From positions 7,603 through 71,602 of the forward strand of contig MPOS01000028.1 in NCBI GenBank assembly GCA_001896555.1: 64,000 nucleotides of DNA, given 5' to 3'. This document shows, one piece after another, positions 29,079 through 40,803 of the stretch. The stretch's first letter is position 1. Each line of letters starts with the position of its first letter. The notes under the pieces are model-generated. The model worked only from the letters and a program-made list of their open reading frames with translations, had not been told where the DNA came from and ran no database searches. The translations under genes and the position numbers were made by a program. This stretch comes from Candidatus Phosphitivorax anaerolimi. GTDB taxonomy: Bacteria > Desulfobacterota > Desulfomonilia > UBA1062.

Positions 29079-29645
29079 TTAAAACCCCATCGCGGCCCGG
29101 AAGTCTCTGATATCCTGGTCTGTGAGTCCGGCGTGCTCGATACCGAGCTCCTTTCTCAGCTCGTCAAGGGAAAATCCCTGCAATGAAACCCTGTCAGGCT
29201 CTGCAATGTCCTCGATACTGATGTCAGGGTCATCCTCGGAACCGAAGAGCCGATACCGGTAAAGGCTCACCGGCACGGCGCAGACATCCCGACACATAGC
29301 GGCGGCTCCCACGGGGATGTCCTGGGAGAGGATGATCAGGCACGGCGGCAGGGTCACGTCGATCTCTTCGGCACGGTAGATCCTCTGGAGAAATTCCCGG
29401 TTCTCGCGGAACCACCGGTATCCCATGAACGAGCGAAGCAGGCAGCCAGCGAACCCGTCCGTTCCGATGGTGATGAGATAGACCCGGGCGTGGTCCGTGG
29501 CCAGCAGGTCTATCCTGCCGGTAAACGCGTTGCCCAGGTTGTGCTCCACGATACGCAACCCGCGGGCCTCCCTGAAATACTGTGCGCAGATCTGGTCGAG
29601 GTAGTCGACCGTCCTGCCTGAAACGGGCTTGAGTATCCTGGTCAT
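29079..29645 (-). CDS. Hypothetical protein, third gene of the ParA-CBM48 operon
   Basis: 188 aa, no motif recognised. Its start overlaps the stop of the upstream gene (ATGA), which implies co-translation. Confidence 0.55.
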   Translation of the reverse strand: MTRILKPVSGRTVDYLDQICAQYFREARGLRIVEHNLGNAFTGRIDLLATDHARVYLITIGTDGFAGCLLRSFMGYRWFRENREFLQRIYRAEEIDVTLPPCLIILSQDIPVGAAAMCRDVCAVPVSLYRYRLFGSEDDPDISIEDIAEPDRVSLQGFSLDELRKELGIEHAGLTDQDIRDFRAAMGF

Positions 29646-30544
29646 GGCCGGCCCTCCTCGCCGAATACCGGCAGCCCGCGCTGCTCAAGAAAGGCCCGGC
29701 TCACAGCCGCTAGGCTCTCCCGGGCAGGCGAGGGCTCAAACCCGAGGACCAGAGGCCGATGCTCTGACAGGGAATCCTCCAGGGCCTTGTCGCGCAGGAG
29801 ATGCCCGAGATATCCCACACTCACCCCCAGCCGTTGCTTCATGAACGTACAGAAGCGGGAGGATACCTCACTGGCCTGCTCACTGGAGGCCGGATCGATG
29901 AGCACCAGGGAGATTCCAGCTTTAGGGTCGCGCTGTTCGATCACCTTGGCACAGGCATAGCACTGGAGAAGAGAGGCCTCGTTCAGGGTGCTTAAGAGCA
30001 GTGCATCGAAATCCACCAGGCTCTTGGCAAGCGAATCCAGACAGAACGGGGTATTGACGACGGCCCATCGATCCCCGTTATGATCACCGGACCCGTTCAG
30101 CCGATCCAGAAGCTCTGCTTCGCCGTCCGGCTCGGAGCAGTGCACAGGGATGTCGTGCAGGCCGTAGAGCCTCACCCTCAGGACCCCGGAAGCGGTATCG
30201 GGGTGAGCGGCCTCGCCGAGCACGTCCTGAACCCCCTCTCCTTCCCGGCTGGACAGGTCGAAGATAATCATCTTTTGCCGGTGGCGTGCCAGCTCCAGCG
30301 AGAAATTGGCCGTGAAGTACGCCCCCATCAGGGCCGAGGCCGGGCAGATGACCCGTATGACCCGGCACTGTCTCGGCTGAGGCAGGTCCCGGCCCGGCTC
30401 TTGCCCGCCGGGTTCTCCCTCGGGTTTTTCATGGGATTCATCTTTCGGTGGTTCATGGGATTCATCCCGCGGCGAATCCGAGAGATAGAACCGGGAAACG
30501 TCCTTGAGGCCCCTGCCCAACCTGCTCTTCTCTTCCATGATCAA
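29642..30544 (-). CDS. ParA/MinD-like protein with a degenerate Walker A, carrying an N-terminal ParB-like peptide (SRLGRGLKDV) and an acidic/Pro-rich linker
   Basis: 300 aa. The body aligns to the MinD/ParA fold (VIRVICPASALMGAYFTANFSLELARHRQKMIIFDLSS), but KGGxGKT is replaced by PASALMGA. The N-terminus resembles ParB's ParA-stimulating peptide. It overlaps both neighbouring genes. Confidence 0.6.
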   Translation of the reverse strand: MIMEEKSRLGRGLKDVSRFYLSDSPRDESHEPPKDESHEKPEGEPGGQEPGRDLPQPRQCRVIRVICPASALMGAYFTANFSLELARHRQKMIIFDLSSREGEGVQDVLGEAAHPDTASGVLRVRLYGLHDIPVHCSEPDGEAELLDRLNGSGDHNGDRWAVVNTPFCLDSLAKSLVDFDALLLSTLNEASLLQCYACAKVIEQRDPKAGISLVLIDPASSEQASEVSSRFCTFMKQRLGVSVGYLGHLLRDKALEDSLSEHRPLVLGFEPSPARESLAAVSRAFLEQRGLPVFGEEGRP

Positions 30545-31599
30545 TCGATTTCGATCAGAGAGTTCTCCCCAAACTCGCTCCTGACGACCTTCGGGTTGGT
30601 GCTGTCAGTAACCCAGGTGCCGTCTACCAGAAACTTGTACTCGTATGCGCCCTTCTTAAGCGGGACAAAGCGCTTCCAGACTCCGCTTCCGTCCACATGC
30701 TGAAGCGGGGTCCTGCCCGGCTGCCAGTCGTTGAAGTCGGCAACCACGCAGACCTGCTTTGCATGAGGGGCGTAAAAGGAGAACAACATGCCTTTCTCCT
30801 TGCCCTCCTCATCCCGGGCGGCAGCAATTTTCTTCACCTTCATCTTGAGGACCTCGGCGGCAAGGTCAAGGTAGTCCCGGGCCCCGATCGAGTCCGGGGC
30901 GTAGTCGATCACAGGTCTGCCGTGGCTCACCGCCTCCTTGAGCCTGACATTGAAGTTGATGACCGCGGTGAACACCTGCCCGCCAAGGTGCTTCTGAACC
31001 TCGTGCAGGGATTCGTAGGCGATCCGGGTCCTGCGGTCGAACATGGTCAGCAGCGCGTTTGTGGTTATCGTGAGGTTCCGCTTGGCATTGACGATCTCGA
31101 TGGTCTCCATCAGCTTGGCCAGACCGTGGATGGCAAACAGTCCGGTCTCCAGGGGGATGATGGCCTCCGAGCACGCGAACAGGGCGTTGAAGGTCAGAAT
31201 GCCGATGTTGGGCGGGCAATCGATGATGCAGAAATCATATCGCTGCTCCACAGACTTCAGGACATCGGCCAGCAGATACTCCCGGTGGTCCCTTCCCAGC
31301 AGGGCGGGCTCCGCGGCGCTGAGCATCACGTCGGAAGGGATCAGATCGAGACCGCGCGAGATCTCGATGACCACGTCTCCGGGTTGCAGCTCCTTCCGCC
31401 CGGAATCCAGCAGGAGATCATAGACCGTGTACTCATATCCCCCCAGTCCGAGCCCGAGGCCAAGGGTTGCATGGGCCTGCGGGTCCATGTCCACGACGAG
31501 CACCTTTTTATTCTTCCGGGCCAGACACGCTGCGAGGTTGATGACCGTGGTCGTCTTCCCGCACCCGCCTTTCTGGTTTATGACTGCAATAGTCCTCAT
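30541..31599 (-). CDS. ParA/MinD-type ATPase fused to a C-terminal AMPK-beta-type glycogen-binding domain (CBM48)
   Basis: 352 aa. Deviant Walker A VINQKGGCGKTTT, ParA body to about residue 260, then VCVVADFNDWQ ... YEYKFLVDGTWVTDSTNPKV, which aligns with the AMPK beta1 glycogen-binding domain (VYLSGSFNNW ... YKFFVDGQWTHDPSEPIV). Confidence 0.8.
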   Translation of the reverse strand: MRTIAVINQKGGCGKTTTVINLAACLARKNKKVLVVDMDPQAHATLGLGLGLGGYEYTVYDLLLDSGRKELQPGDVVIEISRGLDLIPSDVMLSAAEPALLGRDHREYLLADVLKSVEQRYDFCIIDCPPNIGILTFNALFACSEAIIPLETGLFAIHGLAKLMETIEIVNAKRNLTITTNALLTMFDRRTRIAYESLHEVQKHLGGQVFTAVINFNVRLKEAVSHGRPVIDYAPDSIGARDYLDLAAEVLKMKVKKIAAARDEEGKEKGMLFSFYAPHAKQVCVVADFNDWQPGRTPLQHVDGSGVWKRFVPLKKGAYEYKFLVDGTWVTDSTNPKVVRSEFGENSLIEID

Positions 31600-32605: not shown

Positions 32606-34075
32606 ATGGAGAAGACATACTGCAGTTACCACCCTACGAAACCGGCGTTGTGGCATTGCGAGGGCTGCGACGCCGCATTTTGCCCTGACTGCATCACGCG
32701 GCGCGATCTCGGAAGTCACCGGAAAAACACCCTGTACCTCTGTCCCAAATGCGGGAGCTCCGCCAGCAGCCTGCCTGTCCAGAATCTCATAGAACCTTTC
32801 TGGAACAGGCTGCCTCGATTCTTTGTCTATCCTTTCACCACCACCGTGGTTGTGTTCATGCTCGTGCTCTCCCTGTTCATCACCCTCTTCTCCTCACCCA
32901 GCCTGGTGAGCGGGATCATCCAGTTGCTCCTCTTCGGGGTGCTGCTCAAATACTGCTTCGCCGTACTCAGGCAGACCGCCAGGGGCAACATGAACCCGCC
33001 GGATATCGACGAGCACACCATCGCCGACGATTTCATCGTCGTGGCCAAATACTGGCTGCTGGGTGTGGTGTTCATCGCCGCGGGCTTGCTCAGCCTGGCC
33101 GTCTGCACCCGGCTCAGCCTGGAGATCGGCTTTGCGGCGGGCATGGGGCTTTTCGCCGCATGCATTGTCGCCCTGCTGCTCCTGCTCCCTGCAGAGGTGA
33201 TCGTTCTGGCCACGAGCGGCCGCCTCCTGAGAGCGCTCAACCCGGCCGTGTCGGTGCGCATGGCGGTGAGGATGGGATCATCGTACCTGCTCATGAACTT
33301 TTTCCTCATCTTCCTCTATCTGGCCCCCGGGACACTGGCATACCTTCTGAGGCCCTTTTCGCCTGGCTTCGTCACGACCTTTCTCCTGGCCCTGGCGAAC
33401 TGCTATTATTCCATCGTGGCCCACCATCTCATGGGGTATGTCATCCTGCAGAATCACGACACCATCGGATACGATGTCGACATCGAGGAGCAGAACGCAT
33501 GCATTGTCGAAGGGAGCAGTCCCGACGACGTCTCCCGCGGGGTCCTGAATGCGGCGAACATCCTGATCAAGGAGGGAAAGCACAGCGAGGCCGCAGACCT
33601 GATCCGGCAGGAGACGCATGGTGACATCACGGACCTCGAGCTGGCCGGGCGCTATCATCAACTCCTGAAGCTCACCCGGCAAGACCGTGACATGCTTGAA
33701 CATGCAAAGCGTTATCTCGAGCTGCTGACCAAAGCGGGAAGGATTGAAACGGCAAGAACCGTATATCTGGAGTGCGTGGCCGCAGACCCCTCGTTCAACC
33801 CCAGGCCCCAGATCCTCTTTAAGATCGCGCGCTCGTTCAGCGAGGGAGGGAACAGCCGGGCGGCCCTTGAGGCATACAACCGCTTCATTCAGAGCTCGCC
33901 CGATGACCCCCTGGTTCCCAAGGCCTATTTCCTGGCGGCGAACGTCTTCTACGAGAAGATGCTCAGCCCGGAGAAGGCCGTTAAAACCCTCAAACGGCTC
34001 ATGCAGAAATTCCCTGACAACGAGATCATCCCCTATGCCAAGAAGTTTCTGGGCCGCATAGAGCAGCACGGCTGA
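32606..34075 (+). CDS. Membrane protein with N-terminal B-box-like zinc finger, about 6 TM helices and C-terminal TPR repeats
   Basis: 489 aa. CSYHPTKPALWHCEGCDAAFCPDC ... CPKCG; hydrophobic core at residues 80-290; TPR-like helical repeats at residues 330-480. Confidence 0.6.
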   Translation: MEKTYCSYHPTKPALWHCEGCDAAFCPDCITRRDLGSHRKNTLYLCPKCGSSASSLPVQNLIEPFWNRLPRFFVYPFTTTVVVFMLVLSLFITLFSSPSLVSGIIQLLLFGVLLKYCFAVLRQTARGNMNPPDIDEHTIADDFIVVAKYWLLGVVFIAAGLLSLAVCTRLSLEIGFAAGMGLFAACIVALLLLLPAEVIVLATSGRLLRALNPAVSVRMAVRMGSSYLLMNFFLIFLYLAPGTLAYLLRPFSPGFVTTFLLALANCYYSIVAHHLMGYVILQNHDTIGYDVDIEEQNACIVEGSSPDDVSRGVLNAANILIKEGKHSEAADLIRQETHGDITDLELAGRYHQLLKLTRQDRDMLEHAKRYLELLTKAGRIETARTVYLECVAADPSFNPRPQILFKIARSFSEGGNSRAALEAYNRFIQSSPDDPLVPKAYFLAANVFYEKMLSPEKAVKTLKRLMQKFPDNEIIPYAKKFLGRIEQHG

Positions 34076-35569
34076 TCAACCATCGAGATCATCCAGAAGG
34101 CGTCTGGCTACCAGACACTCCCCGGAGAGGGGATAGCGCATGCAGATCACCTGAAGATAGTTCCTGGCCTTTCCCTTCGATCCGTCCTTCATGCACGCCC
34201 GGGCTATGTGCAGGAGTCCTTCGGGCATCTTTGGAAGATCGGGTTTCCTCTTGAGCAGATAGCCCATGATCCGCTCCGCCTCTTCAAGATGGCCGGTGGC
34301 GGCGAAGTACGAGCTTATGGAAACGAGCAGGCTCGAAGGGAGCTTCGGTCCGTGGGCCTTTTGGATATAATCCCGATACACGGTCAGGGTCTCACGGTGT
34401 GCCTGACGGTCGTCCGCCAGGTGCGCCAGGAGCCTGCGGGCGCTGTCGTGGAATTTGTCGCTGCCGGGGTCGATCTTATCCAGGTGATATATCTGGGTGA
34501 GCGCGGTCCGGCTGTTCGGATCGATCTCAAGCACCTGATCAAGAAGGGCGCGCGCCCCCTTTGTGTCCAGCTTCTCCACCCGTTTCATAGCCTCGTCCAG
34601 GAGCGATGCCGCCTTTTCTCCCGGACCCTTCCCCTGCTCTAAAACCTCATCGGGGTCCTCACCCCGGACCTTCCGGCGGATGAGGCCCATGAGGGCGCCG
34701 CTCCCCAGGCCACCGATATGGGCCAGGTACGCGACCCGGCTCTCAGGCCCCAGCAGGAGCTGAAAGACCTCGTTGCCGATCCACAGGGCGAGGATGACAA
34801 TCCCGGGCACCAGGGTGTAATTGAAATAGAACCCGAGCGAATAGAACACCTTGATCCTGCGCCTTCCATAGAGCACTGCATAGGCGCCCATCAAAGCGGC
34901 AATGGCGCCGGACGCGCCGACGAGCGGGATCACGCTTGCGTGGTACATGGCGCCGAAGAGCGCCGCTGCGCAGAGGCCGCCTGCGATGTAGAGGCCCAGG
35001 AAGAGTACGCGTCCCCATGCAAGCTCGAGAATGCACCCCACCAGCCAGAGAAAGACCATATTGCCCAGCAGGTGCATGAACCCGCCATGGAGGAACATAT
35101 GGCCGAACATGCCCTTCATGCTCCAGTCCGCGGGTCTGAACCCGTAACGCATGGTTGTGGTGGACTGAAGGAGCCCTTCGAGATGGTTGCGCTTCTCCCG
35201 CCAGGATGAATAGACATCCATCTCAGGAGTGATGATGCGGTCGTCCTGAAGCCTGGCCATGAACTCGTCGTCATCCTGCATGGCGAGTATCAGGGGAGGG
35301 ATCTCCTTCCGGGAGTGAGCGGTGGAAGTGGCATCCCAACCGGCGGTATCGAGGCCGGCCACGGCCCCGAATTCCCGGTATTGCTCATAGGCTGCGACCT
35401 CCAGTTCGGCAAGGCCGGAGTCAAGGTAGTAGTCCCCGGCCTTCTGGAATATTTCAGGGTCGGAAGACTGGAAGGAGAAGAATACCACGCAGTTGATCAG
35501 GATGATGGCCAGGGTGATCACGGGGGGATTGCGAAGGCTCATCCTTCCGGAGAGGGGAATGATTACCAC
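34076..35569 (-). CDS. Rhomboid family intramembrane serine protease with C-terminal TPR domain
   Basis: 497 aa. Rhomboid core with catalytic GASGAIAALMGAY (Ser) and AHIGGLGSGALMGL (His), then TPR repeats. Its stop codon is directly adjacent to the stop of the convergent gene (TGATCA). Confidence 0.75.
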   Translation of the reverse strand: MVIIPLSGRMSLRNPPVITLAIILINCVVFFSFQSSDPEIFQKAGDYYLDSGLAELEVAAYEQYREFGAVAGLDTAGWDATSTAHSRKEIPPLILAMQDDDEFMARLQDDRIITPEMDVYSSWREKRNHLEGLLQSTTTMRYGFRPADWSMKGMFGHMFLHGGFMHLLGNMVFLWLVGCILELAWGRVLFLGLYIAGGLCAAALFGAMYHASVIPLVGASGAIAALMGAYAVLYGRRRIKVFYSLGFYFNYTLVPGIVILALWIGNEVFQLLLGPESRVAYLAHIGGLGSGALMGLIRRKVRGEDPDEVLEQGKGPGEKAASLLDEAMKRVEKLDTKGARALLDQVLEIDPNSRTALTQIYHLDKIDPGSDKFHDSARRLLAHLADDRQAHRETLTVYRDYIQKAHGPKLPSSLLVSISSYFAATGHLEEAERIMGYLLKRKPDLPKMPEGLLHIARACMKDGSKGKARNYLQVICMRYPLSGECLVARRLLDDLDG

Positions 35570-36756: not shown

Positions 36757-39700
36757 CTAGCCGCGTGCTGTTTTCAGGCGGGCATAGTACTGTTTCTTGG
36801 CATCGTACATCAGGGCATCGGCCTTCTTCATGACCATGTCCGGGGGTGTGTCGTCGGAGCAGGCCAGACCGACACTTATGTGAATAGGAATAACGGCGGG
36901 CTGCTCTCCGGGCTTGGACACGGAAATCTTAAGATGAGACGCCGCCTGGAGGATGCGGCCGTAGAGGATCTCGGCCTGGCTCAGGCTCGTAGAAGGCATG
37001 AGTACGGCGAACTCATCCCCGCCGAGCCGGGCTGCAACATCTGTCTGCCTGCATACAGACCTGAGCATCCTTCCGGTCAGGACTATGGCCTCGTCACCCT
37101 TTTCGTGGCCATAAGTATCGTTGATCTGCTTGAGCCCGTTGACGTCCACGATCATGATCGAGAAGTGCATGTTCCTATACCGCCTGGCGTGATCGATGAC
37201 CTTTTTCAGCTCCTGATTCAAAAAAGCGCGGTTGTACAGTCCCGTGAGCCCGTCTGTACTCGCCATGCGCTCGAGTTGGATCATGAGGAGCTTGTTCTGG
37301 GTCACGGCGGAAAGCTGTCCGAGAAATACCGCGAATATTTCCTTGGTCAGGCGGTCGAGCTCCTGGCCCTTGAATATCAGATACCCCATCATCTTGCTAT
37401 CCCGGCCCTCCATGGGGAACACGGTCCAGACATCGCCCGGCGAAGCCGGTATCCCTCTGGCGGCCAACGCTTGGTTGAGGGTATCCCCGAACTCGGACGT
37501 CATGATCTCCTCCCTCAACTCCAGGATCATCTTCTGCTCGGCCTCGCTGATACCGAGGAACGACATCGCCTCCAGGATGCCCCGTCTCCTGTTTTCCAGG
37601 ATGATGCCGCCCCGGAAGTCCGAGAACAGTGTGTGAAGCTGGCTGAGGATAAAGGAGAACAGCTCATCGAGGTTGTCCAGGTGATGAATCCGGGTGCTGG
37701 TCTCAAGCAGGGTGCGGAATATCTTGTTCTGCCTGCCGATAATATCACTGTTTTCCCTGAGCTCCTTGCCCTTGCGGACGGATTCGGCCAGGGCGCGGTT
37801 CAGCTCCCGGGTCCGAAGGTTCACCTTTTCCTCCAGCCCCTCGAGCAGCATCGCATTCTCGATGAGCGGCCCCAGCACCAGGGATATGTTCTGGAAAATT
37901 TCAAACTCGGTGCGCGAATAGGGCGAACCGTCGGCCTTTCTGCCGGGAAGCATGACACCCAGGAGCTCTCCCTTGTATATCACCGGGATGATCACCTCGC
38001 TGTCCTTGATAAGGCCCTCTCTGCCGTCGAAGGCATGGATGCTTGGATTCATCCGCACTAGGTTCTCCTGGGTGCACAGCGCCTGCTCGCGCTTGCATAT
38101 CTTGATGAGGGGGTGATCATCCCTGACATGCAGGCTCTTGCTTTCCACGTCCCTGGCCCCTGAGTCGGCGAAGAGCCCTGCGTCGTTCTGGGTGTTCCAT
38201 GTTTTCCAGCCAAAGAACACCTGCCTGCCCGAGAGATCGGGAAGCGAAAACAGCGATGCGAAGCTCGAGCTCTCGATGTTTTCAAAAAACCAGGCGTAGA
38301 GCATCTGATGGATCGTCTCCCGGTGGTGGATCCGGGAAAGCTTGCTGGTGAGCATGTAATAGCTGTCCTTGAGTGTGTCCTCCGACTTCGTCATGAACAG
38401 GTCGAGCACCGTGGTCCAGCCGCGCTTCACCGGCTGGAACAGGAAGACTACCAGGAGGATGCCCGTCAATGCCCGGGCCGTTTCCTGTCCTTCATGCAGG
38501 AAAAGGGCGGGTGAGAATCCCACCACGATCATGGCCAGTGCCAGGCCGAGCCAGAAGAAAACGATGCGGATATACTGAAGGGCCATCTTGAGGTTGAACT
38601 TGAAGAGCCCGTAGGCAAGGAAGAACAGCGCGATGAAAATAAAGGTACCGTAGGGATAAATCTCGTACCCGTAGATGGCCGGGTTGTTGGTGATGCTCAG
38701 GACGGCGATGATGATGAATGCGGTGAGCGTGTGCTTCACCCTTGTGCGCTGGCTTGTCCGGGGATCTTTGAATGCCCTGTAGAGCAGGAAGATGCCGTAG
38801 CAGATGCCTGCCCCCCACAGGGCGCTCATGAAGTCGTATGCTGCGGCCTTCTTGGCGAAAAATCCGAAGTAGTACGAGTGCATGCCGTCGAAATAGAGGT
38901 CGGTCTGGCTCAGAGGGGCCATGATCAGTCCGGCGAGGTACGCGGCATAGACAACCCACCACCCGTCTTTTTTGCCGATGACCAGATAGATCAGGTGGAT
39001 ATTCACCCCCAGCAGCAGAAGCGACAGGAAGAAATGGTCGATCCGCGAGATGATCAGGGCAAGCGTTGGATCGGTGACGATGCACTGCAGGAAGATGTCC
39101 AGGTTCAGTGCGGTATAGCAGAAACTGATGAGGCTGAAGAGCTGGCTCTCGGGCCGGTTTCTTTCCAGGCCCAGAACGAACAGAGAGAGAAACCCCGCAC
39201 CCAGAAACGAGAGCATTGGGGGAATCCCGTAGGGGATGATGCTGCTGGTGATATGTGAAACCGGGTAATCCTTGAGAACGTTTATCACACCCAGCGCGGT
39301 GGCCAGATAGAGAACGGAGAGGAGCAGTCTTAAGCCCTGTGAGATGGTCTGCCTTCTGGTCTGGACGCTCATGCTCCGGATGTCGCTGTAGAACAGGCCA
39401 TATCCTACGAGTATCAGGGAGATGAAGGCGAGGTTGTAAAAAGGATAGGAGCTCAGCCCGATGGTCGTTATCATGTTGCCCGTGAGGATAAGGACAGCGA
39501 ACGCGATTCCGGAGGCGATATAGGCCGTTGCCCTTCTCCGGATCGGGTTTCGCTCGTGCCGGTACGCGCTCACCAGCATGAAGATGCACCAGAACAGCAT
39601 GACCAAAGAGATCGTAATGAAGAGGAAATGCCCCAGGCCCACCAGCGCAAAGATCCCGGAAGGGAATAGGCTCACGCCTTGGCGTGACTCATAGAGCAAC

Positions 39701-40803
39701 AACGGGATGAGGAGCAGCCCAGGCACATAGGGCAACACAACATTCCCCTGCCCGGCCTTCCGGCAGGTGATCAGCACCAGGTGCGCGCAGATCCCCATGA
39801 GATTCACCAGGAAGATATCATTGATCAGGATGATCTGGCGCGAGAAATCCTCGGGCAGCCCGGTGATGATGAGGTCCCGGAGATTGACGACGCACACCAA
39901 GAGACAGATAACCACGTAGAGCAGGGCATCGACCCGGCCCGGCACCTTGCGCAGGGAAAACAGCACGCAGCCGGCCGTAGCCAGGAGGGAGACCGCGGTG
40001 ATCGTGGTGTGATGGAACCGCCAGGACAGGAAGTCGCCCACCTGCAGATCGTGAACCGATCCAAGAACAAAGATCAGATCGCAGATGAGCGGAAAGAGCA
40101 CAAAGCTGATGATGAAGGTATGCAGCAGGTTCTCCCGGGTGGGTGTGTTTTTCAGGTCGTCCCCCGGCCTGGCCGTCATGGCCGAAGATATGAGAACGAG
40201 CGGCACAAAGGCAAACCCGAAAAACCCCCACGAACCGCCCGAAAGCGCATCCAGACCCGGAAGCGCCATGAACAGGACGGATCCTGCCGCCATGAGCCCT
40301 CTGTTGAGCGTTCTTTCCCGGCCTGCGGCATGATCGGGAATGGAAAAAAGCCGCAGGTACACATACGCCGATCCGGCGGCTGACGAGGCAATGAAAAAAG
40401 GAGCCATCCGGATCTCCTCGTTCCCGTCGATCCAGAAGACGCCGATCATCAGAAACGAGAGGATATACGCGATCCACAGGGCGATGGTATTCCCCTTGGC
40501 GTCCAGATACCGGTGTATCAGGTGGAGCACCAGGGGGATGACGACGACCGGCAGGGGCCGGGTTATTTCAACGAGGAGCGCAGCGGTCCACGATCCCGGG
40601 AAAAGGGACAGCGAGAGGCAGGACAGGTTCCAGAAGAAACTCACCATACAACAGGCCGCCAGCAGCCTGAACTCCTTCTTCACCTCTGCGAACCGGGTGA
40701 TGAGGATAATCAGAGAGGCGCTGACCAGCAGGCTTGCCAGGAACGGCAGCATGAATGGGAAAAAATGAGAGAGATTCACGGTCAAATCCGTTTCTCCTCT
40801 CAA
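36757..40803 (-). CDS. Giant polytopic membrane sensor: about 26 TM helices, then a GAF-like domain and a GGDEF diguanylate cyclase
   Basis: 1348 aa. The C-terminus reads GLTGLYNRAFLNQEL ... RLGGDEFAVLMP (GGDEF with an RxxD-like site). A GAF-like region lies at about residues 1000-1150. The N-terminal 850 aa are almost entirely hydrophobic helices. Confidence 0.8.
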   Translation of the reverse strand: MRGETDLTVNLSHFFPFMLPFLASLLVSASLIILITRFAEVKKEFRLLAACCMVSFFWNLSCLSLSLFPGSWTAALLVEITRPLPVVVIPLVLHLIHRYLDAKGNTIALWIAYILSFLMIGVFWIDGNEEIRMAPFFIASSAAGSAYVYLRLFSIPDHAAGRERTLNRGLMAAGSVLFMALPGLDALSGGSWGFFGFAFVPLVLISSAMTARPGDDLKNTPTRENLLHTFIISFVLFPLICDLIFVLGSVHDLQVGDFLSWRFHHTTITAVSLLATAGCVLFSLRKVPGRVDALLYVVICLLVCVVNLRDLIITGLPEDFSRQIILINDIFLVNLMGICAHLVLITCRKAGQGNVVLPYVPGLLLIPLLLYESRQGVSLFPSGIFALVGLGHFLFITISLVMLFWCIFMLVSAYRHERNPIRRRATAYIASGIAFAVLILTGNMITTIGLSSYPFYNLAFISLILVGYGLFYSDIRSMSVQTRRQTISQGLRLLLSVLYLATALGVINVLKDYPVSHITSSIIPYGIPPMLSFLGAGFLSLFVLGLERNRPESQLFSLISFCYTALNLDIFLQCIVTDPTLALIISRIDHFFLSLLLLGVNIHLIYLVIGKKDGWWVVYAAYLAGLIMAPLSQTDLYFDGMHSYYFGFFAKKAAAYDFMSALWGAGICYGIFLLYRAFKDPRTSQRTRVKHTLTAFIIIAVLSITNNPAIYGYEIYPYGTFIFIALFFLAYGLFKFNLKMALQYIRIVFFWLGLALAMIVVGFSPALFLHEGQETARALTGILLVVFLFQPVKRGWTTVLDLFMTKSEDTLKDSYYMLTSKLSRIHHRETIHQMLYAWFFENIESSSFASLFSLPDLSGRQVFFGWKTWNTQNDAGLFADSGARDVESKSLHVRDDHPLIKICKREQALCTQENLVRMNPSIHAFDGREGLIKDSEVIIPVIYKGELLGVMLPGRKADGSPYSRTEFEIFQNISLVLGPLIENAMLLEGLEEKVNLRTRELNRALAESVRKGKELRENSDIIGRQNKIFRTLLETSTRIHHLDNLDELFSFILSQLHTLFSDFRGGIILENRRRGILEAMSFLGISEAEQKMILELREEIMTSEFGDTLNQALAARGIPASPGDVWTVFPMEGRDSKMMGYLIFKGQELDRLTKEIFAVFLGQLSAVTQNKLLMIQLERMASTDGLTGLYNRAFLNQELKKVIDHARRYRNMHFSIMIVDVNGLKQINDTYGHEKGDEAIVLTGRMLRSVCRQTDVAARLGGDEFAVLMPSTSLSQAEILYGRILQAASHLKISVSKPGEQPAVIPIHISVGLACSDDTPPDMVMKKADALMYDAKKQYYARLKTARG

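What the first reader, a model, noticed from the sequence alone, without database searches (positions are those of the whole stretch)
29642..30544. Partner protein combines a ParB-like N-terminal peptide with an ATPase-dead ParA-like fold
The N-terminus MIMEEKSRLGRGLKDVSRFYL resembles the conserved ParB N-terminal peptide (GLGRGLSALL type) that carries the arginine which stimulates ParA ATPase. Next comes an acidic/Pro-rich low-complexity linker (DESHEPPKDESHEKPEGEPGGQEPG). The remaining 230 aa align with the MinD/ParA fold, but the P-loop is replaced (PASALMGA instead of KGGxGKT), so ATP cannot be bound. A pseudo-ParA that acts as the activator or adaptor of a true ParA would be unusual. It may heterodimerise with the CBM48-ParA.
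Basis: partly seen in the sequence, partly recalled or inferred. Interest (0 to 1): 0.65.

Follow-up and report, generated by a model that had tools for sequence, protein, structure and literature searches.

The report
ParB-tagged dead MinD partner of ParA-CBM48
This gene encodes a MinD/FlhG-shaped protein that has lost its ATP-binding motifs but carries a ParB-like docking peptide at its tip, and it is a fixed partner of a glycogen-binding-domain ParA ATPase in a widespread, undescribed three-gene module.

Summary
ORF 29642..30538 (-) starts at the ATG two codons inside the TTG call. It has three parts: a conserved N-terminal peptide (RLGRGLKDVSRFYLS), a variable E/P/G-rich disordered linker, and a 230-aa MinD/FlhG-fold body.

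- **Fold:** the family profile matches FlhG 4rz2 at E=4e-27. The AF2 model has pLDDT 86.6, and Foldseek ranks FleN, FlhG and MinD first.
- **Dead active site:** the signature lysine, Walker A Lys/Thr and Walker B Asp are all replaced.
- **Peptide:** it is the most conserved stretch of the protein.
- **Genomic association:** a DNA scan for the peptide alone found 45 genome loci and 119 metagenome loci. In all but one chance-like hit with enough upstream flank, a Soj-type ParA sits directly upstream, and a CBM48 domain was detected in nearly all of them.
- **Third component:** In Rokubacteria, Gemmatimonadota and Acidobacteria the same peptide is fused directly to that domain with no MinD body. 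One locus fuses all three parts.

Best reading: a ParB-like activating adaptor built on a pseudo-ATPase scaffold. The cargo, possibly glycogen, is unproven. I found no literature on this module.

The parts
29642..30538 (-). Target CDS (298 aa from the ATG at 30538; the ORF lister's TTG at 30544 adds 2 codons): N-peptide, linker and P-loop-less MinD/FlhG-fold body
   Evidence: (orthologue starts)
30479..30538 (-). N-terminal peptide, residues 1-20 (MEEKSRLGRGLKDVSRFYLS). Family motif: [KR]-L-G-R-G-L-x-[DE]-V-S-x-[FLY]-[FY]-L-[ST]. ParB-like ParA-binding tag (inferred function).
   Evidence: specificity scans
30368..30478 (-). Disordered acidic/Pro/Gly-rich linker, residues 21-57; length varies from 13 to 52 aa in the family
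30426..30468 (-). 24-nt tandem duplication inside the linker (encodes KDESHE twice); absent from the aligned orthologues
29675..30367 (-). MinD/FlhG-fold body, residues 58-288
30314..30349 (-). Degenerate P-loop, residues 64-75 (ICPASALMGAYF) in place of xSGKGGVGK[TS]
30053..30055 (-). Asn162 at the Walker B aspartate position (VVNTP in place of hhhDxP)
30541..31599 (-). Upstream partner gene: Soj-type ParA ATPase (residues 1-255, intact KGGCGKT P-loop) fused to a C-terminal CBM48/AMPK-beta-type glucan-binding domain (residues 263-352)
29079..29645 (-). Downstream third gene (188 aa; its start overlaps the target's stop codon, ATGA): remote NucS-C/YraN-like PD-(D/E)xK domain lacking the E-x-K catalytic pair, plus a C-terminal tail

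Best explanation
The ORF encodes the cognate partner, a ParB-like ATPase-activating adaptor, of the adjacent Soj-type ParA-CBM48. Together with the downstream nuclease-dead NucS-like protein it forms a self-contained three-gene positioning module.

Proposed mechanism:
1. ParA-CBM48 has an intact deviant Walker A, an intact Walker B and the conserved DNA-binding basic residue. It dimerises on ATP and binds the nucleoid. Its CBM48 domain binds an alpha-glucan such as glycogen. This step is inferred.
2. Residues ~5-20 of the target protein sit at the end of a 13-52-aa flexible tether. They dock into the mainly hydrophobic partner pocket at the ParA dimer edge, as the ParB LG(R/K)GL peptide does. 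This stimulates ATP hydrolysis and releases ParA. This step is inferred from motif, position and gene linkage.
3. The MinD/FlhG-fold body no longer cycles nucleotide. It serves as a static scaffold that couples the peptide to the third protein. The inference rests on gene fusion and on replacement of the body by the third domain in other phyla.

Shown here: the anatomy, the fold, the loss of catalytic motifs, the conservation, and the strict three-way gene linkage. Inferred: peptide-ParA binding, ATPase stimulation, the scaffold role and the identity of the cargo.
For: - **Fold and dead motifs:**
- **Peptide conservation:** the peptide is the most conserved segment of the protein, and conservation is at the protein level.
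- **Specificity of the peptide:** a DNA pattern for the peptide alone retrieved 45 genome loci. Every locus with usable upstream sequence has ParA-CBM48 directly upstream. It also retrieved 119 metagenome loci. Of the 107 with at least 300 nt of upstream flank, 104 have CBM48 upstream, 2 have ParA only, and 1 is a chance-like hit at a contig end.
- **Reverse test:** three ParA-CBM48 genes 39-46% identical to the window's, with downstream sequence available, are each followed by a homologue of this family plus the third domain.
- **Portability of the peptide:** in Rokubacteria/Methylomirabilota, Gemmatimonadales, Acidobacteria and a Planctomycetales MAG, the same peptide (DKPLGRGLEDVSHLFLS) is fused by a P/S-rich linker directly to the third-gene domain, with no MinD body. 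In L055 the peptide, a degenerate MinD body and the third domain are one 466-aa protein.
- **The ParA is Soj-like:** best PDB matches are M. xanthus ParA 8ray (1e-53) and T. thermophilus Soj (1e-42). Its catalytic residues are invariant in 150-151 of 151 sequences. The equivalent of M. xanthus ParA R238 is K or R in 148 of 151. Four of the six ParB-pocket residues defined in PMC12462528 (L150, L152, L155, L187) are conserved hydrophobic residues.
- **Match to the ParB motif:** M. xanthus ParB's critical positions L11, R13, L15 and L18 correspond to L, R, L and V of this motif.
- **General rule and precedent:** ParA/MinD partners use a charged, disordered N-terminus (bioRxiv 10.1101/2022.06.09.495121). 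FlhG is a MinD-fold protein whose N-terminal motif activates another NTPase.
Against:
- The resemblance to ParB is only about 8 residues long. A 24-position profile of the peptide finds no ParB in PDB sequences.
- After position 8 the motif differs from ParB: S where M. xanthus ParB has I19, followed by a family-specific FFLS.
- Two of the six ParB-pocket positions are not hydrophobic in ParA-CBM48 (V116 becomes P/Q/E; L192 becomes R or is variable).
- ParA and CBM48 always co-occur, so gene linkage cannot tell whether the peptide targets the ATPase domain or the CBM48 domain.
- The cargo is unknown. Neighbouring genes are not enriched for glycogen metabolism.
- A ParA that carries its own cargo-binding-type domain does not fit the standard model in which the partner sits on the cargo.
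Confidence: 0.6

Rival explanations
1. The peptide is a docking tag for something other than the ParA ATPase domain, such as the CBM48 domain, the third protein, DNA or a cargo surface. The protein would then be a structural or regulatory subunit that does not act by stimulating ParA hydrolysis.
For: The match to ParB is short and the second half of the motif (VSxFFLS) is family-specific. The peptide profile finds no ParB. ParA and CBM48 always co-occur, so linkage cannot separate the two possible targets. Two ParB-pocket positions are not conserved in ParA-CBM48.
Against: The LGRGL core, the basic residues before it, the N-terminal disordered setting and the gene position directly after a Soj-type ParA all match the ParB arrangement. 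Four pocket residues are conserved hydrophobic residues. When the peptide moves to another scaffold it still sits in the gene directly after ParA.
Confidence: 0.2
2. One reading: the dead MinD-fold body forms an asymmetric 'half-dead' heterodimer with ParA-CBM48 across the nucleotide-sandwich interface and modulates its cycle.
For: Both proteins share the superfamily fold over the whole ATPase domain, and they are encoded next to each other with probable translational coupling.
Against: - The body is closer to FlhG/MinD than to Soj: 4e-27 against 0.1. It shares only 15% identity with the neighbouring ParA.
- ParA/MinD dimers are ATP sandwiches that need the signature lysine and a bound nucleotide on both sides, by established knowledge of the family. 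Both elements are missing in this body.
- Whole phyla run the system without any MinD body (93 of 119 metagenome loci). A heterodimer therefore cannot be the core mechanism.
Confidence: 0.1
3. The protein is still a nucleotide-dependent switch. It would bind ATP or another nucleotide non-canonically and behave like a slow FlhG/FleN-type regulator rather than a static scaffold.
For: Distant members keep a classical GxxxxGK[ST] motif (L006 SGESVRGKS, L023 SGEGTRGKT, P0051 SGSDVIGKS). One relative, P0121, has an LGRGL-type N-terminal motif (without the VSxFFLS half) together with a fully intact GKGGTGKS. The first Switch I aspartate is kept in 64 of 76 members.
Against: In the window protein and its whole subfamily every phosphate- and Mg-contacting residue is gone: K to A, K to G, T to A, D to N, and no glycine-rich loop remains.
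Confidence: 0.05
4. The gene is a decaying duplicate with no function.
For: Loss of all catalytic motifs.
Against: The gene is intact and full-length. The family profile found 53 cluster representatives at E<=1e-10, and members occur in MAGs labelled as several phyla, with conserved family-specific positions (Y194, N78, E82, G245, S256, P262) and strict synteny.
Confidence: 0.02

Closest known systems
Chromosomal ParB/Spo0J N-terminal ParA-binding peptide (LG(R/K)GL..L[IL]); M. xanthus ParB residues 11-19 (PMC12462528)
   Same: A short motif in a disordered N-terminal region, preceded by basic residues, with L-G-R-G-L and a hydrophobic residue at +7. It is encoded directly downstream of a Soj-type ParA. 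It is presumably a docking and activating tag.
   Different: There is no ParB/Srx CTPase domain, no HTH and no ParB dimerisation domain (no Pfam hit). The motif continues as VSx[FL][FY]L[ST] in place of AL[LI]. It is carried on a dead MinD fold or on a dead nuclease fold. No parS-like repeats were found nearby.
FlhG/FleN (YlxH), the MinD-type ATPase of flagellar number control (PDB 4rz2, 4rz3, 5j1j)
   Same: It is the closest fold and sequence relative. It has the same architecture: an N-terminal extension carrying a short motif that activates a partner SIMIBI NTPase (DQAxxLR acting on FlhF), followed by a MinD fold.
   Different: FlhG is an active ATPase with KGGxGK[ST]. The target has lost the Walker A, signature lysine and Walker B residues. 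It has LGRGL in place of DQAxxLR. No conserved C-terminal segment follows the last fold helix in the alignment, although amphipathicity was not computed. It has no flagellar gene neighbours. Its partner is a ParA, not FlhF.
Non-ParB partners of ParA/MinD ATPases (McdB, PomX/PomY, MinE, ParP/TlpT), known as ATPase-activating proteins
   Same: The partner is encoded next to the ATPase and uses a charged, disordered N-terminal peptide as a portable 'luggage tag'.
   Different: I know of no described partner built on a ParA/MinD-fold pseudo-ATPase, and three literature searches and one review check found none. Here the ATPase itself carries a cargo-type (CBM48) domain.
Three-component archaeal segregation machinery AspA-ParB-ParA of pNOB8 (recalled from memory, not checked here)
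   Same: A ParA plus an adaptor plus a third protein, encoded in one operon. The adaptor links the ATPase to the third component.
   Different: The folds are unrelated. That system binds a defined centromere, and no centromere-like repeats were found here.
Atypical ParA/MinD-fold proteins with weakened ATPase sites, such as TadZ/CpaE and BcsQ (recalled from memory; BcsQ also appears among the fold hits)
   Same: Superfamily members used mainly as scaffolds or localisation factors.
   Different: By my recollection those proteins keep a recognisable P-loop and bind ATP. The window protein has none of the phosphate-binding residues.

Membership tests
ParA/MinD (deviant Walker A) ATPases, functional members | SIMIBI/MinD alpha-beta fold | tested here: met
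   AF2 pLDDT 86.6. Foldseek probability 1.00 to FleN, FlhG, MinD and Soj. Profile E=4e-27 to FlhG.
ParA/MinD (deviant Walker A) ATPases, functional members | Deviant Walker A xKGGxxGK[ST] with signature lysine | tested here: not met
   The window has CPASALMGAY. The signature K is kept in 1 of 76 members and the Walker A K in 20 of 76.
ParA/MinD (deviant Walker A) ATPases, functional members | Walker B aspartate and Switch I (Walker A') aspartates | tested here: not met
   Walker B D is N in the window (N in 51 of 76, D in 7 of 76). The second Switch I D is lost in the window. The first D is retained.
FlhG/FleN | N-terminal DQAxxLR FlhF-activating motif | tested here: not met
   The N-terminus is [KR]LGRGLx[DE]VS... 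in all family members examined.
FlhG/FleN | C-terminal amphipathic membrane-targeting helix | tested here: inconclusive
   The alignment ends just after the last fold helix (271-286). The tail (GLPVFGEEGRP) is not conserved. No hydrophobic-moment calculation was done.
FlhG/FleN | Flagellar gene neighbourhood (flhF, fliA) | tested here: not met
   The neighbours are ParA-CBM48 and a NucS-like protein. No flagellar families appeared among 182 neighbouring ORFs.
ParB/Spo0J | N-terminal ParA-binding motif LG(R/K)GL..L[IL] in a disordered region | tested here: inconclusive
   LGRGLxxV matches 4 of the 5 critical positions of M. xanthus ParB. The peptide profile retrieves no ParB, and the motif is too short for statistics.
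ParB/Spo0J | ParB/Srx (CTPase) domain, HTH and C-terminal dimerisation domain | tested here: not met
   No Pfam or NCBIfam hit. The body is a MinD fold.
ParA/MinD partner proteins (ATPase-activating proteins), a functional class | Encoded adjacent to, and co-inherited with, a specific ParA/MinD ATPase | tested here: met
ParA/MinD partner proteins (ATPase-activating proteins), a functional class | Charged, disordered N-terminal peptide | tested here: met
   Residues 1-20 contain K4, R6, R9, K12 and R16. The N-terminal ~55 residues are modelled at low confidence (10-residue block means 51-72). The peptide is highly conserved.
ParA/MinD partner proteins (ATPase-activating proteins), a functional class | Stimulates the cognate ATPase and links it to a cargo | not testable with these tools
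   Needs biochemistry and cell biology.
NucS / YraN PD-(D/E)xK nucleases (third gene, 29079..29645) | Family-level sequence match | tested here: not met
   NucS model PRK04247 scores at best 24 bits against a cut-off of 216 (E=1.6e-5, profile positions 131-231). It matched 3 of the 14 aligned members and 4 of 7 sequences scanned individually. This is a remote resemblance only.
NucS / YraN PD-(D/E)xK nucleases (third gene, 29079..29645) | Catalytic D...(D/E)-x-K triad | tested here: not met
   The 'IDLLAxD' element is kept, but the expected E-x-K position reads LITIG, IIDFD or IVVSG. The motif assignment comes from established knowledge of the fold.

The most novel reading that the evidence does not exclude
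This is a widespread, undescribed bacterial positioning system for alpha-glucan (glycogen) granules, found in MAGs labelled Desulfomonilia/Thermodesulfobacteriota, Bacteriovoracaceae, Methylomirabilota, Gemmatimonadota, Acidobacteriota, Planctomycetota and Eisenbacteria. In it the nucleoid-binding ParA carries the cargo-binding module itself (CBM48). The activator is assembled from two pseudo-enzymes: a P-loop-less MinD fold and a nuclease-dead NucS-like fold. A ParB-type peptide has moved between these two scaffolds during evolution.
Probability: 0.3. Interest if true: 0.85.

Novelty: new variant of a known kind. Interest (0 to 1): 0.68.

Why it matters
ParA/MinD systems are the main way bacteria position large cargos, and each new partner type has revealed a new cargo or a new rule.

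This module differs from the described systems in three ways:
- The activator peptide sits on a pseudo-ATPase of the same superfamily as the motor.
- The same peptide appears on a second, unrelated scaffold in other phyla. This is natural evidence for the 'portable luggage tag' idea.
- The motor itself is fused to a glycogen-type carbohydrate-binding module, which points to a storage-polysaccharide cargo. The 2024 review of the family that I checked does not mention such a cargo.

The module is compact (two or three genes) and defined by a searchable 14-residue signature. The hypothesis can be tested directly with three purified proteins, one peptide, DNA and glycogen.

Tried and rejected
- **AF2 on the 8 close orthologues** gave an unusable model (pLDDT 34). 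It was repeated with 57 diverse sequences.
- **The search for related loci** with the family alignments failed because no stretch was conserved enough. I replaced it with a degenerate DNA pattern for the peptide. The first pattern had too few fixed bases.
- **Apparent fusion in L047** of the pseudo-MinD body and the third domain is an artefact of a masked run of N and was discarded. The L055 fusion is uninterrupted.
- **Centromere-like repeats or palindromes** around the operon: nothing beyond chance-level short repeats. The promoter and terminator scans were at background.
- **Neighbour-gene Pfam enrichment** over 182 flanking ORFs: only lineage-specific synteny appeared (rubrerythrin, OmpA), with no consistent glycogen genes.
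- **Defence-system or phage origin:** there were no PADLOC or PHROGs hits for the target or the third protein.
- **Peptide profile against PDB sequences:** no ParB was retrieved. This is uninformative because the motif is short.
- **Third-protein profile** against PDB sequences and Pfam gave nothing usable. Only NCBIfam gave weak NucS and YraN hits.
- **Literature searches** for ParA+CBM48, glycogen positioning and pseudo-ATPase MinD found nothing relevant.
Full report
**1. What is in the sequence**

On the minus strand three ORFs are packed end to end.
- 30541..31599 encodes a 352-aa ParA with a C-terminal CBM48.
- 29642..30544 is the finding.
- 29079..29645 encodes a 188-aa protein.

The ParA stop codon (TGA, 30541-30543) lies 2 nt before an ATG at 30538. 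Six of seven aligned orthologues begin at the equivalent of that ATG with M-[DEG]-[EQ]-[KRV]-x-[RK]-LGRG[LI]. The real product is therefore 298 aa (MEEKSRLGRGL...), and the TTG call only adds 'MI'. The stop of the target overlaps the start of the third gene (ATGA). The arrangement suggests translational coupling of all three genes. Near-identical proteins come from Desulfomonilia MAGs.

**2. The body is a MinD/FlhG fold without an active site**

- The single sequence has no Pfam or NCBIfam hit, and only a marginal FlhG hit in PDB sequences.
- A profile of the eight close orthologues, searched against 1.84 billion representatives, found 662 relatives. Fifty-three had E<=1e-10. Most of the strongest are full-length proteins of about 270-320 aa with the same N-terminus. 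Beyond that point the hits are genuine SGKGGVGK[TS] FlhG/MinD proteins.
- With a 57-sequence alignment (A2), AlphaFold2 gives pLDDT 86.6 and pTM 0.80. Residues 58-288 form an alternating beta-alpha fold. The N-terminal ~55 residues are modelled at low confidence (10-residue block means 51-72).
- Foldseek ranks FleN (5j1j, E=6e-12), FlhG (4rz2, 4rz3) and MinD first, ahead of NifH and Soj.
- The A2 profile matches FlhG at 4e-27, FleN at 8e-21, archaeal MinD at 3e-13, and Soj only at 0.1.
- Against the adjacent ParA the profile aligns over the whole domain but weakly (probability 53%, 15% identity). The protein is a distant paralogue of the FlhG/MinD branch, not a recent copy of its neighbour.

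A column-by-column alignment with eight real ATPases shows 'ICPASALMGAYF' in place of 'TSGKGGVGKT'. The table gives the state of each catalytic position in the window protein and in 76 unique family members.

| Position | Window | Kept in family |
|---|---|---|
| Signature lysine | A | K in 1 of 76 |
| Walker A lysine | G | K in 20 of 76 |
| Walker A Ser/Thr | A | S/T in 42 of 76 |
| Walker B aspartate | N | D in 7 of 76 (N in 51) |

A few distant members keep a classical GxxxxGK[ST] motif (L006, L023, P0051). One relative (P0121) combines an LGRGL-type N-terminal motif, lacking the VSxFFLS half, with a fully intact GKGGTGKS. This suggests descent from an active ATPase. 'ATPase-dead' is well supported by sequence. 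'Cannot bind ATP' is a reasonable inference that has not been measured.

**3. The N-terminal peptide is the most constrained part of the protein and marks this system specifically**

- In A2 the mean column conservation is 0.71 for residues 5-20, 0.93 for LGRGL, 0.38 for the body and 0.14 for the linker. The best 16-residue window of the whole protein is the peptide.
- Across 87 unique versions the consensus is [KR]-L-G-R-G-L-x-[DE]-V-S-[HR]-[LF]-[FY]-L-[ST]. In the MinD-type proteins it starts almost always at residue 7.
- Third codon positions, and the CTN/TTR and CGN/AGR alternatives, are fully mixed. Selection therefore acts on the peptide. That sample was collected with the pattern itself, so it shows synonymous saturation only and is not independent evidence of conservation.
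- A degenerate DNA pattern encoding only this peptide was scanned over 596 Gb of species-representative genomes and gave 45 loci. Every locus with usable upstream sequence has a ParA-CBM48 gene immediately upstream.
Of the 107 loci with at least 300 nt of upstream flank, 104 have CBM48 upstream and 2 have ParA without a detected CBM48. One is a chance-like match at a contig end.

**4. A third component, and portability of the peptide**

- The downstream 188-aa gene is as tightly linked as the ParA.
- In MAGs labelled Rokubacteria/Methylomirabilota, Gemmatimonadales, Acidobacteria and Planctomycetales, the gene after ParA-CBM48 encodes the same peptide (DKPLGRGLEDVSHLFLS). A P/S-rich linker follows, and then a ~150-aa domain homologous to that third gene. 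There is no MinD body at all. This two-gene form accounts for 93 of the 119 metagenome hits.
- In L055 a 466-aa protein carries a variant peptide, a degenerate MinD body and the third domain in one chain.
- In L007 the gene order is third protein, then an LGRGL-tagged active MinD (P0121), then ParA.
- In the opposite direction, ParA-CBM48 proteins only 39-46% identical to the window's (P0299, P0311, P0295) are each followed by a family homologue and the third domain.

The conserved core is therefore ParA-CBM48, the peptide and the third domain. The dead MinD body is an optional adaptor that carries the peptide when it is present. In A4 the third proteins of the three-gene form have C-terminal extensions beyond the core, most ending in a conserved L..ELGIE.AGLTD.EI..F-like tail. 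The two-gene form ends at the core. I read the tail as a candidate docking element for the MinD body. This is inference only.

**5. The neighbours**

- *ParA-CBM48, ATPase domain.* It matches M. xanthus ParA (8ray, 1e-53) and T. thermophilus Soj (1e-42) best. Across 151 unique sequences the signature lysine, Walker A lysine and Walker B aspartate are invariant. The equivalent of the DNA-binding arginine R238 of M. xanthus ParA is K or R in 148 of 151.
- *ParB pocket.* I mapped the six ParB-pocket residues of M. xanthus ParA (PMC12462528; the 8ray numbering offset of 19 was verified at all six positions in the alignment). L150, L152, L155 and L187 are conserved hydrophobic residues (I/V/L, L/I/V, F and L/V/I). 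V116 and L192 are not conserved.
- *CBM48 domain.* It matches GlgB N-terminal CBM48 modules and the AMPK beta CBM. W292 and W329 are invariant, K322 is K or R, and N346 is mostly N. From my memory of the AMPK beta1 CBM-cyclodextrin structure these are the glucan-contacting positions. That assignment was not verified here.
- *Third protein.* It has no Pfam or PDB sequence hit. The NCBIfam NucS model matched the C-terminal nuclease domain (profile positions 131-231) in 3 of the 14 aligned members, and in 4 of 7 sequences scanned individually, with best E=1.6e-5. YraN hits were weaker. The IDLLAxD element is present, but the E-x-K position is not conserved. I read it as a nuclease-dead PD-(D/E)xK-like domain, with moderate confidence.

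**6. Mechanism**

The best-supported reading is a ParA-type positioning module in which the target is the ParB-equivalent.

- The peptide matches the ParA-binding motif of chromosomal ParB at four of the five positions shown to be critical in M. xanthus: L11, R13, L15 and L18 correspond to L, R, L and V. I19 corresponds to S.
- The peptide sits in a disordered N-terminal region on a flexible tether. It is encoded directly after a Soj-type ParA that keeps most of the hydrophobic partner pocket.
- Partners of ParA/MinD ATPases generally use such N-terminal tags.
- The closest structural relative, FlhG, already shows the architecture 'N-terminal NTPase-activating motif plus MinD fold'.
The 2025 study argues that this residue is not an arginine finger but helps remodel the active site.
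- The family-specific second half of the motif (VSxFFLS), and the two divergent pocket positions, could insulate the system from the housekeeping ParAB. This is inference.

What the system positions is open. CBM48 suggests glycogen or another alpha-glucan. One locus has a GH57 branching enzyme next to the module (L057), and a phosphoglucomutase lies 6 kb away in the window. However, neighbour enrichment is negative. A ParA that carries its own cargo-type domain departs from the standard scheme.

**7. Rivals**

- The peptide may target CBM48, the third protein or another surface instead of the ATPase domain. Gene linkage cannot separate these possibilities.
- The heterodimer idea is disfavoured for three reasons. 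The body lacks everything needed for an ATP-sandwich interface. It belongs to a different branch of the superfamily from its neighbour. Most versions of the system lack the body altogether.
- Residual nucleotide binding is conceivable only for the distant members that keep GK[ST].
- A functionless relic is excluded by the conservation.

**8. Comparison and novelty**

The protein is not a member of FlhG/FleN, of functional ParA/MinD ATPases or of ParB, because defining features of each were tested and not met. It fits the functional class of ParA/MinD partner proteins on the two features that could be tested.

I found no paper describing a ParA-CBM48, a ParA-driven glycogen system or a pseudo-ATPase partner. 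A 2024 review of the family does not mention glycogen or carbohydrate cargos. NCBI labels one orthologue 'MinD/ParA family ATP-binding protein'. That label is misleading for a protein with no P-loop.

I rate this as a new variant of a known kind of system. It appears in MAGs labelled as several phyla, and it should interest the ParA/MinD field.

Noticed in passing
window 29079..29645 (-): The third gene of the operon encodes a 188-aa protein with no Pfam hit. NCBIfam gives weak hits to the NucS C-terminal nuclease domain (best 1.6e-5) and to YraN. The E-x-K of the PD-(D/E)xK motif is not conserved, so this looks like a second pseudo-enzyme in the same module.
   Followed up: partly
L010, L013, L015-L017, L019, L026, L029, L030, L032, L039-L042, L044, L048, L049, L051, and 93 of the 119 metagenome loci (L059 onward): In a two-gene form of the system (Rokubacteria/Methylomirabilota, Gemmatimonadales, Acidobacteria, Planctomycetales) the same N-terminal peptide is fused directly to the third-gene domain, with no MinD body.
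   Followed up: yes
L055:6237-7637 (+): A 466-aa protein after a 409-aa ParA-CBM48 carries a variant peptide (EGRGIESVARHFLT), a degenerate MinD body and a C-terminal third-gene domain in one chain. PilM, PilN and PilO genes and a type II secretion E-type (T2SSE/MshEN) ATPase gene lie on the other side of the ParA gene.
   Followed up: partly
L007:1130-2077 (P0121): A relative with an LGRGL-type N-terminal motif (it lacks the VSxFFLS half) and a fully intact GKGGTGKS P-loop. The gene order is permuted: third-like gene, this gene, then ParA. It may represent the active ancestral state. Only a 2.3-kb contig is available.
   Followed up: partly
window 30426..30468: A 24-nt tandem duplication inside the linker encodes KDESHE twice. 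It is absent from the aligned orthologues, which shows that the linker tolerates length change.
   Followed up: yes
A4 alignment columns ~160-294; window 29079..29200 approx.: In A4 the third proteins of the three-gene form have C-terminal extensions beyond the core, most ending in a conserved L..ELGIE.AGLTD.EI..F-like tail. The two-gene form ends at the core domain. The tail is a candidate docking element for the MinD body.
   Followed up: no
L057:7663-9495 (+): A GH57-type glycogen branching enzyme (Glyco_hydro_57 + BE_C) lies directly downstream of the three-gene module. Together with two GHL15 (hypothetical glycosyl hydrolase) neighbours seen, it is one of the few carbohydrate-related links beyond CBM48.
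   Followed up: no
L021:3562-3909 (+): A stand-alone 115-aa CBM48-like ORF lies about 2 kb upstream of a complete module.
   Followed up: no
window 32606..34075 (+): A 489-aa protein combines an N-terminal B-box-type zinc finger, a DUF4013 membrane region and C-terminal TPR repeats. It is conserved next to a rhomboid-TPR protein (34076..35569) in related MAGs. A B-box domain is unusual in a bacterium.
   Followed up: no
window 36757..40803 (-): A 1348-aa protein whose only recognised domains are a C-terminal GGDEF and DUF3369. The N-terminal ~1000 aa are unannotated.
   Followed up: no
L047:2298-3365: An apparent fusion of the MinD body and the third domain in this Bacteriovoracaceae MAG is caused by a masked run of N in the record. 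It is not real.
   Followed up: yes
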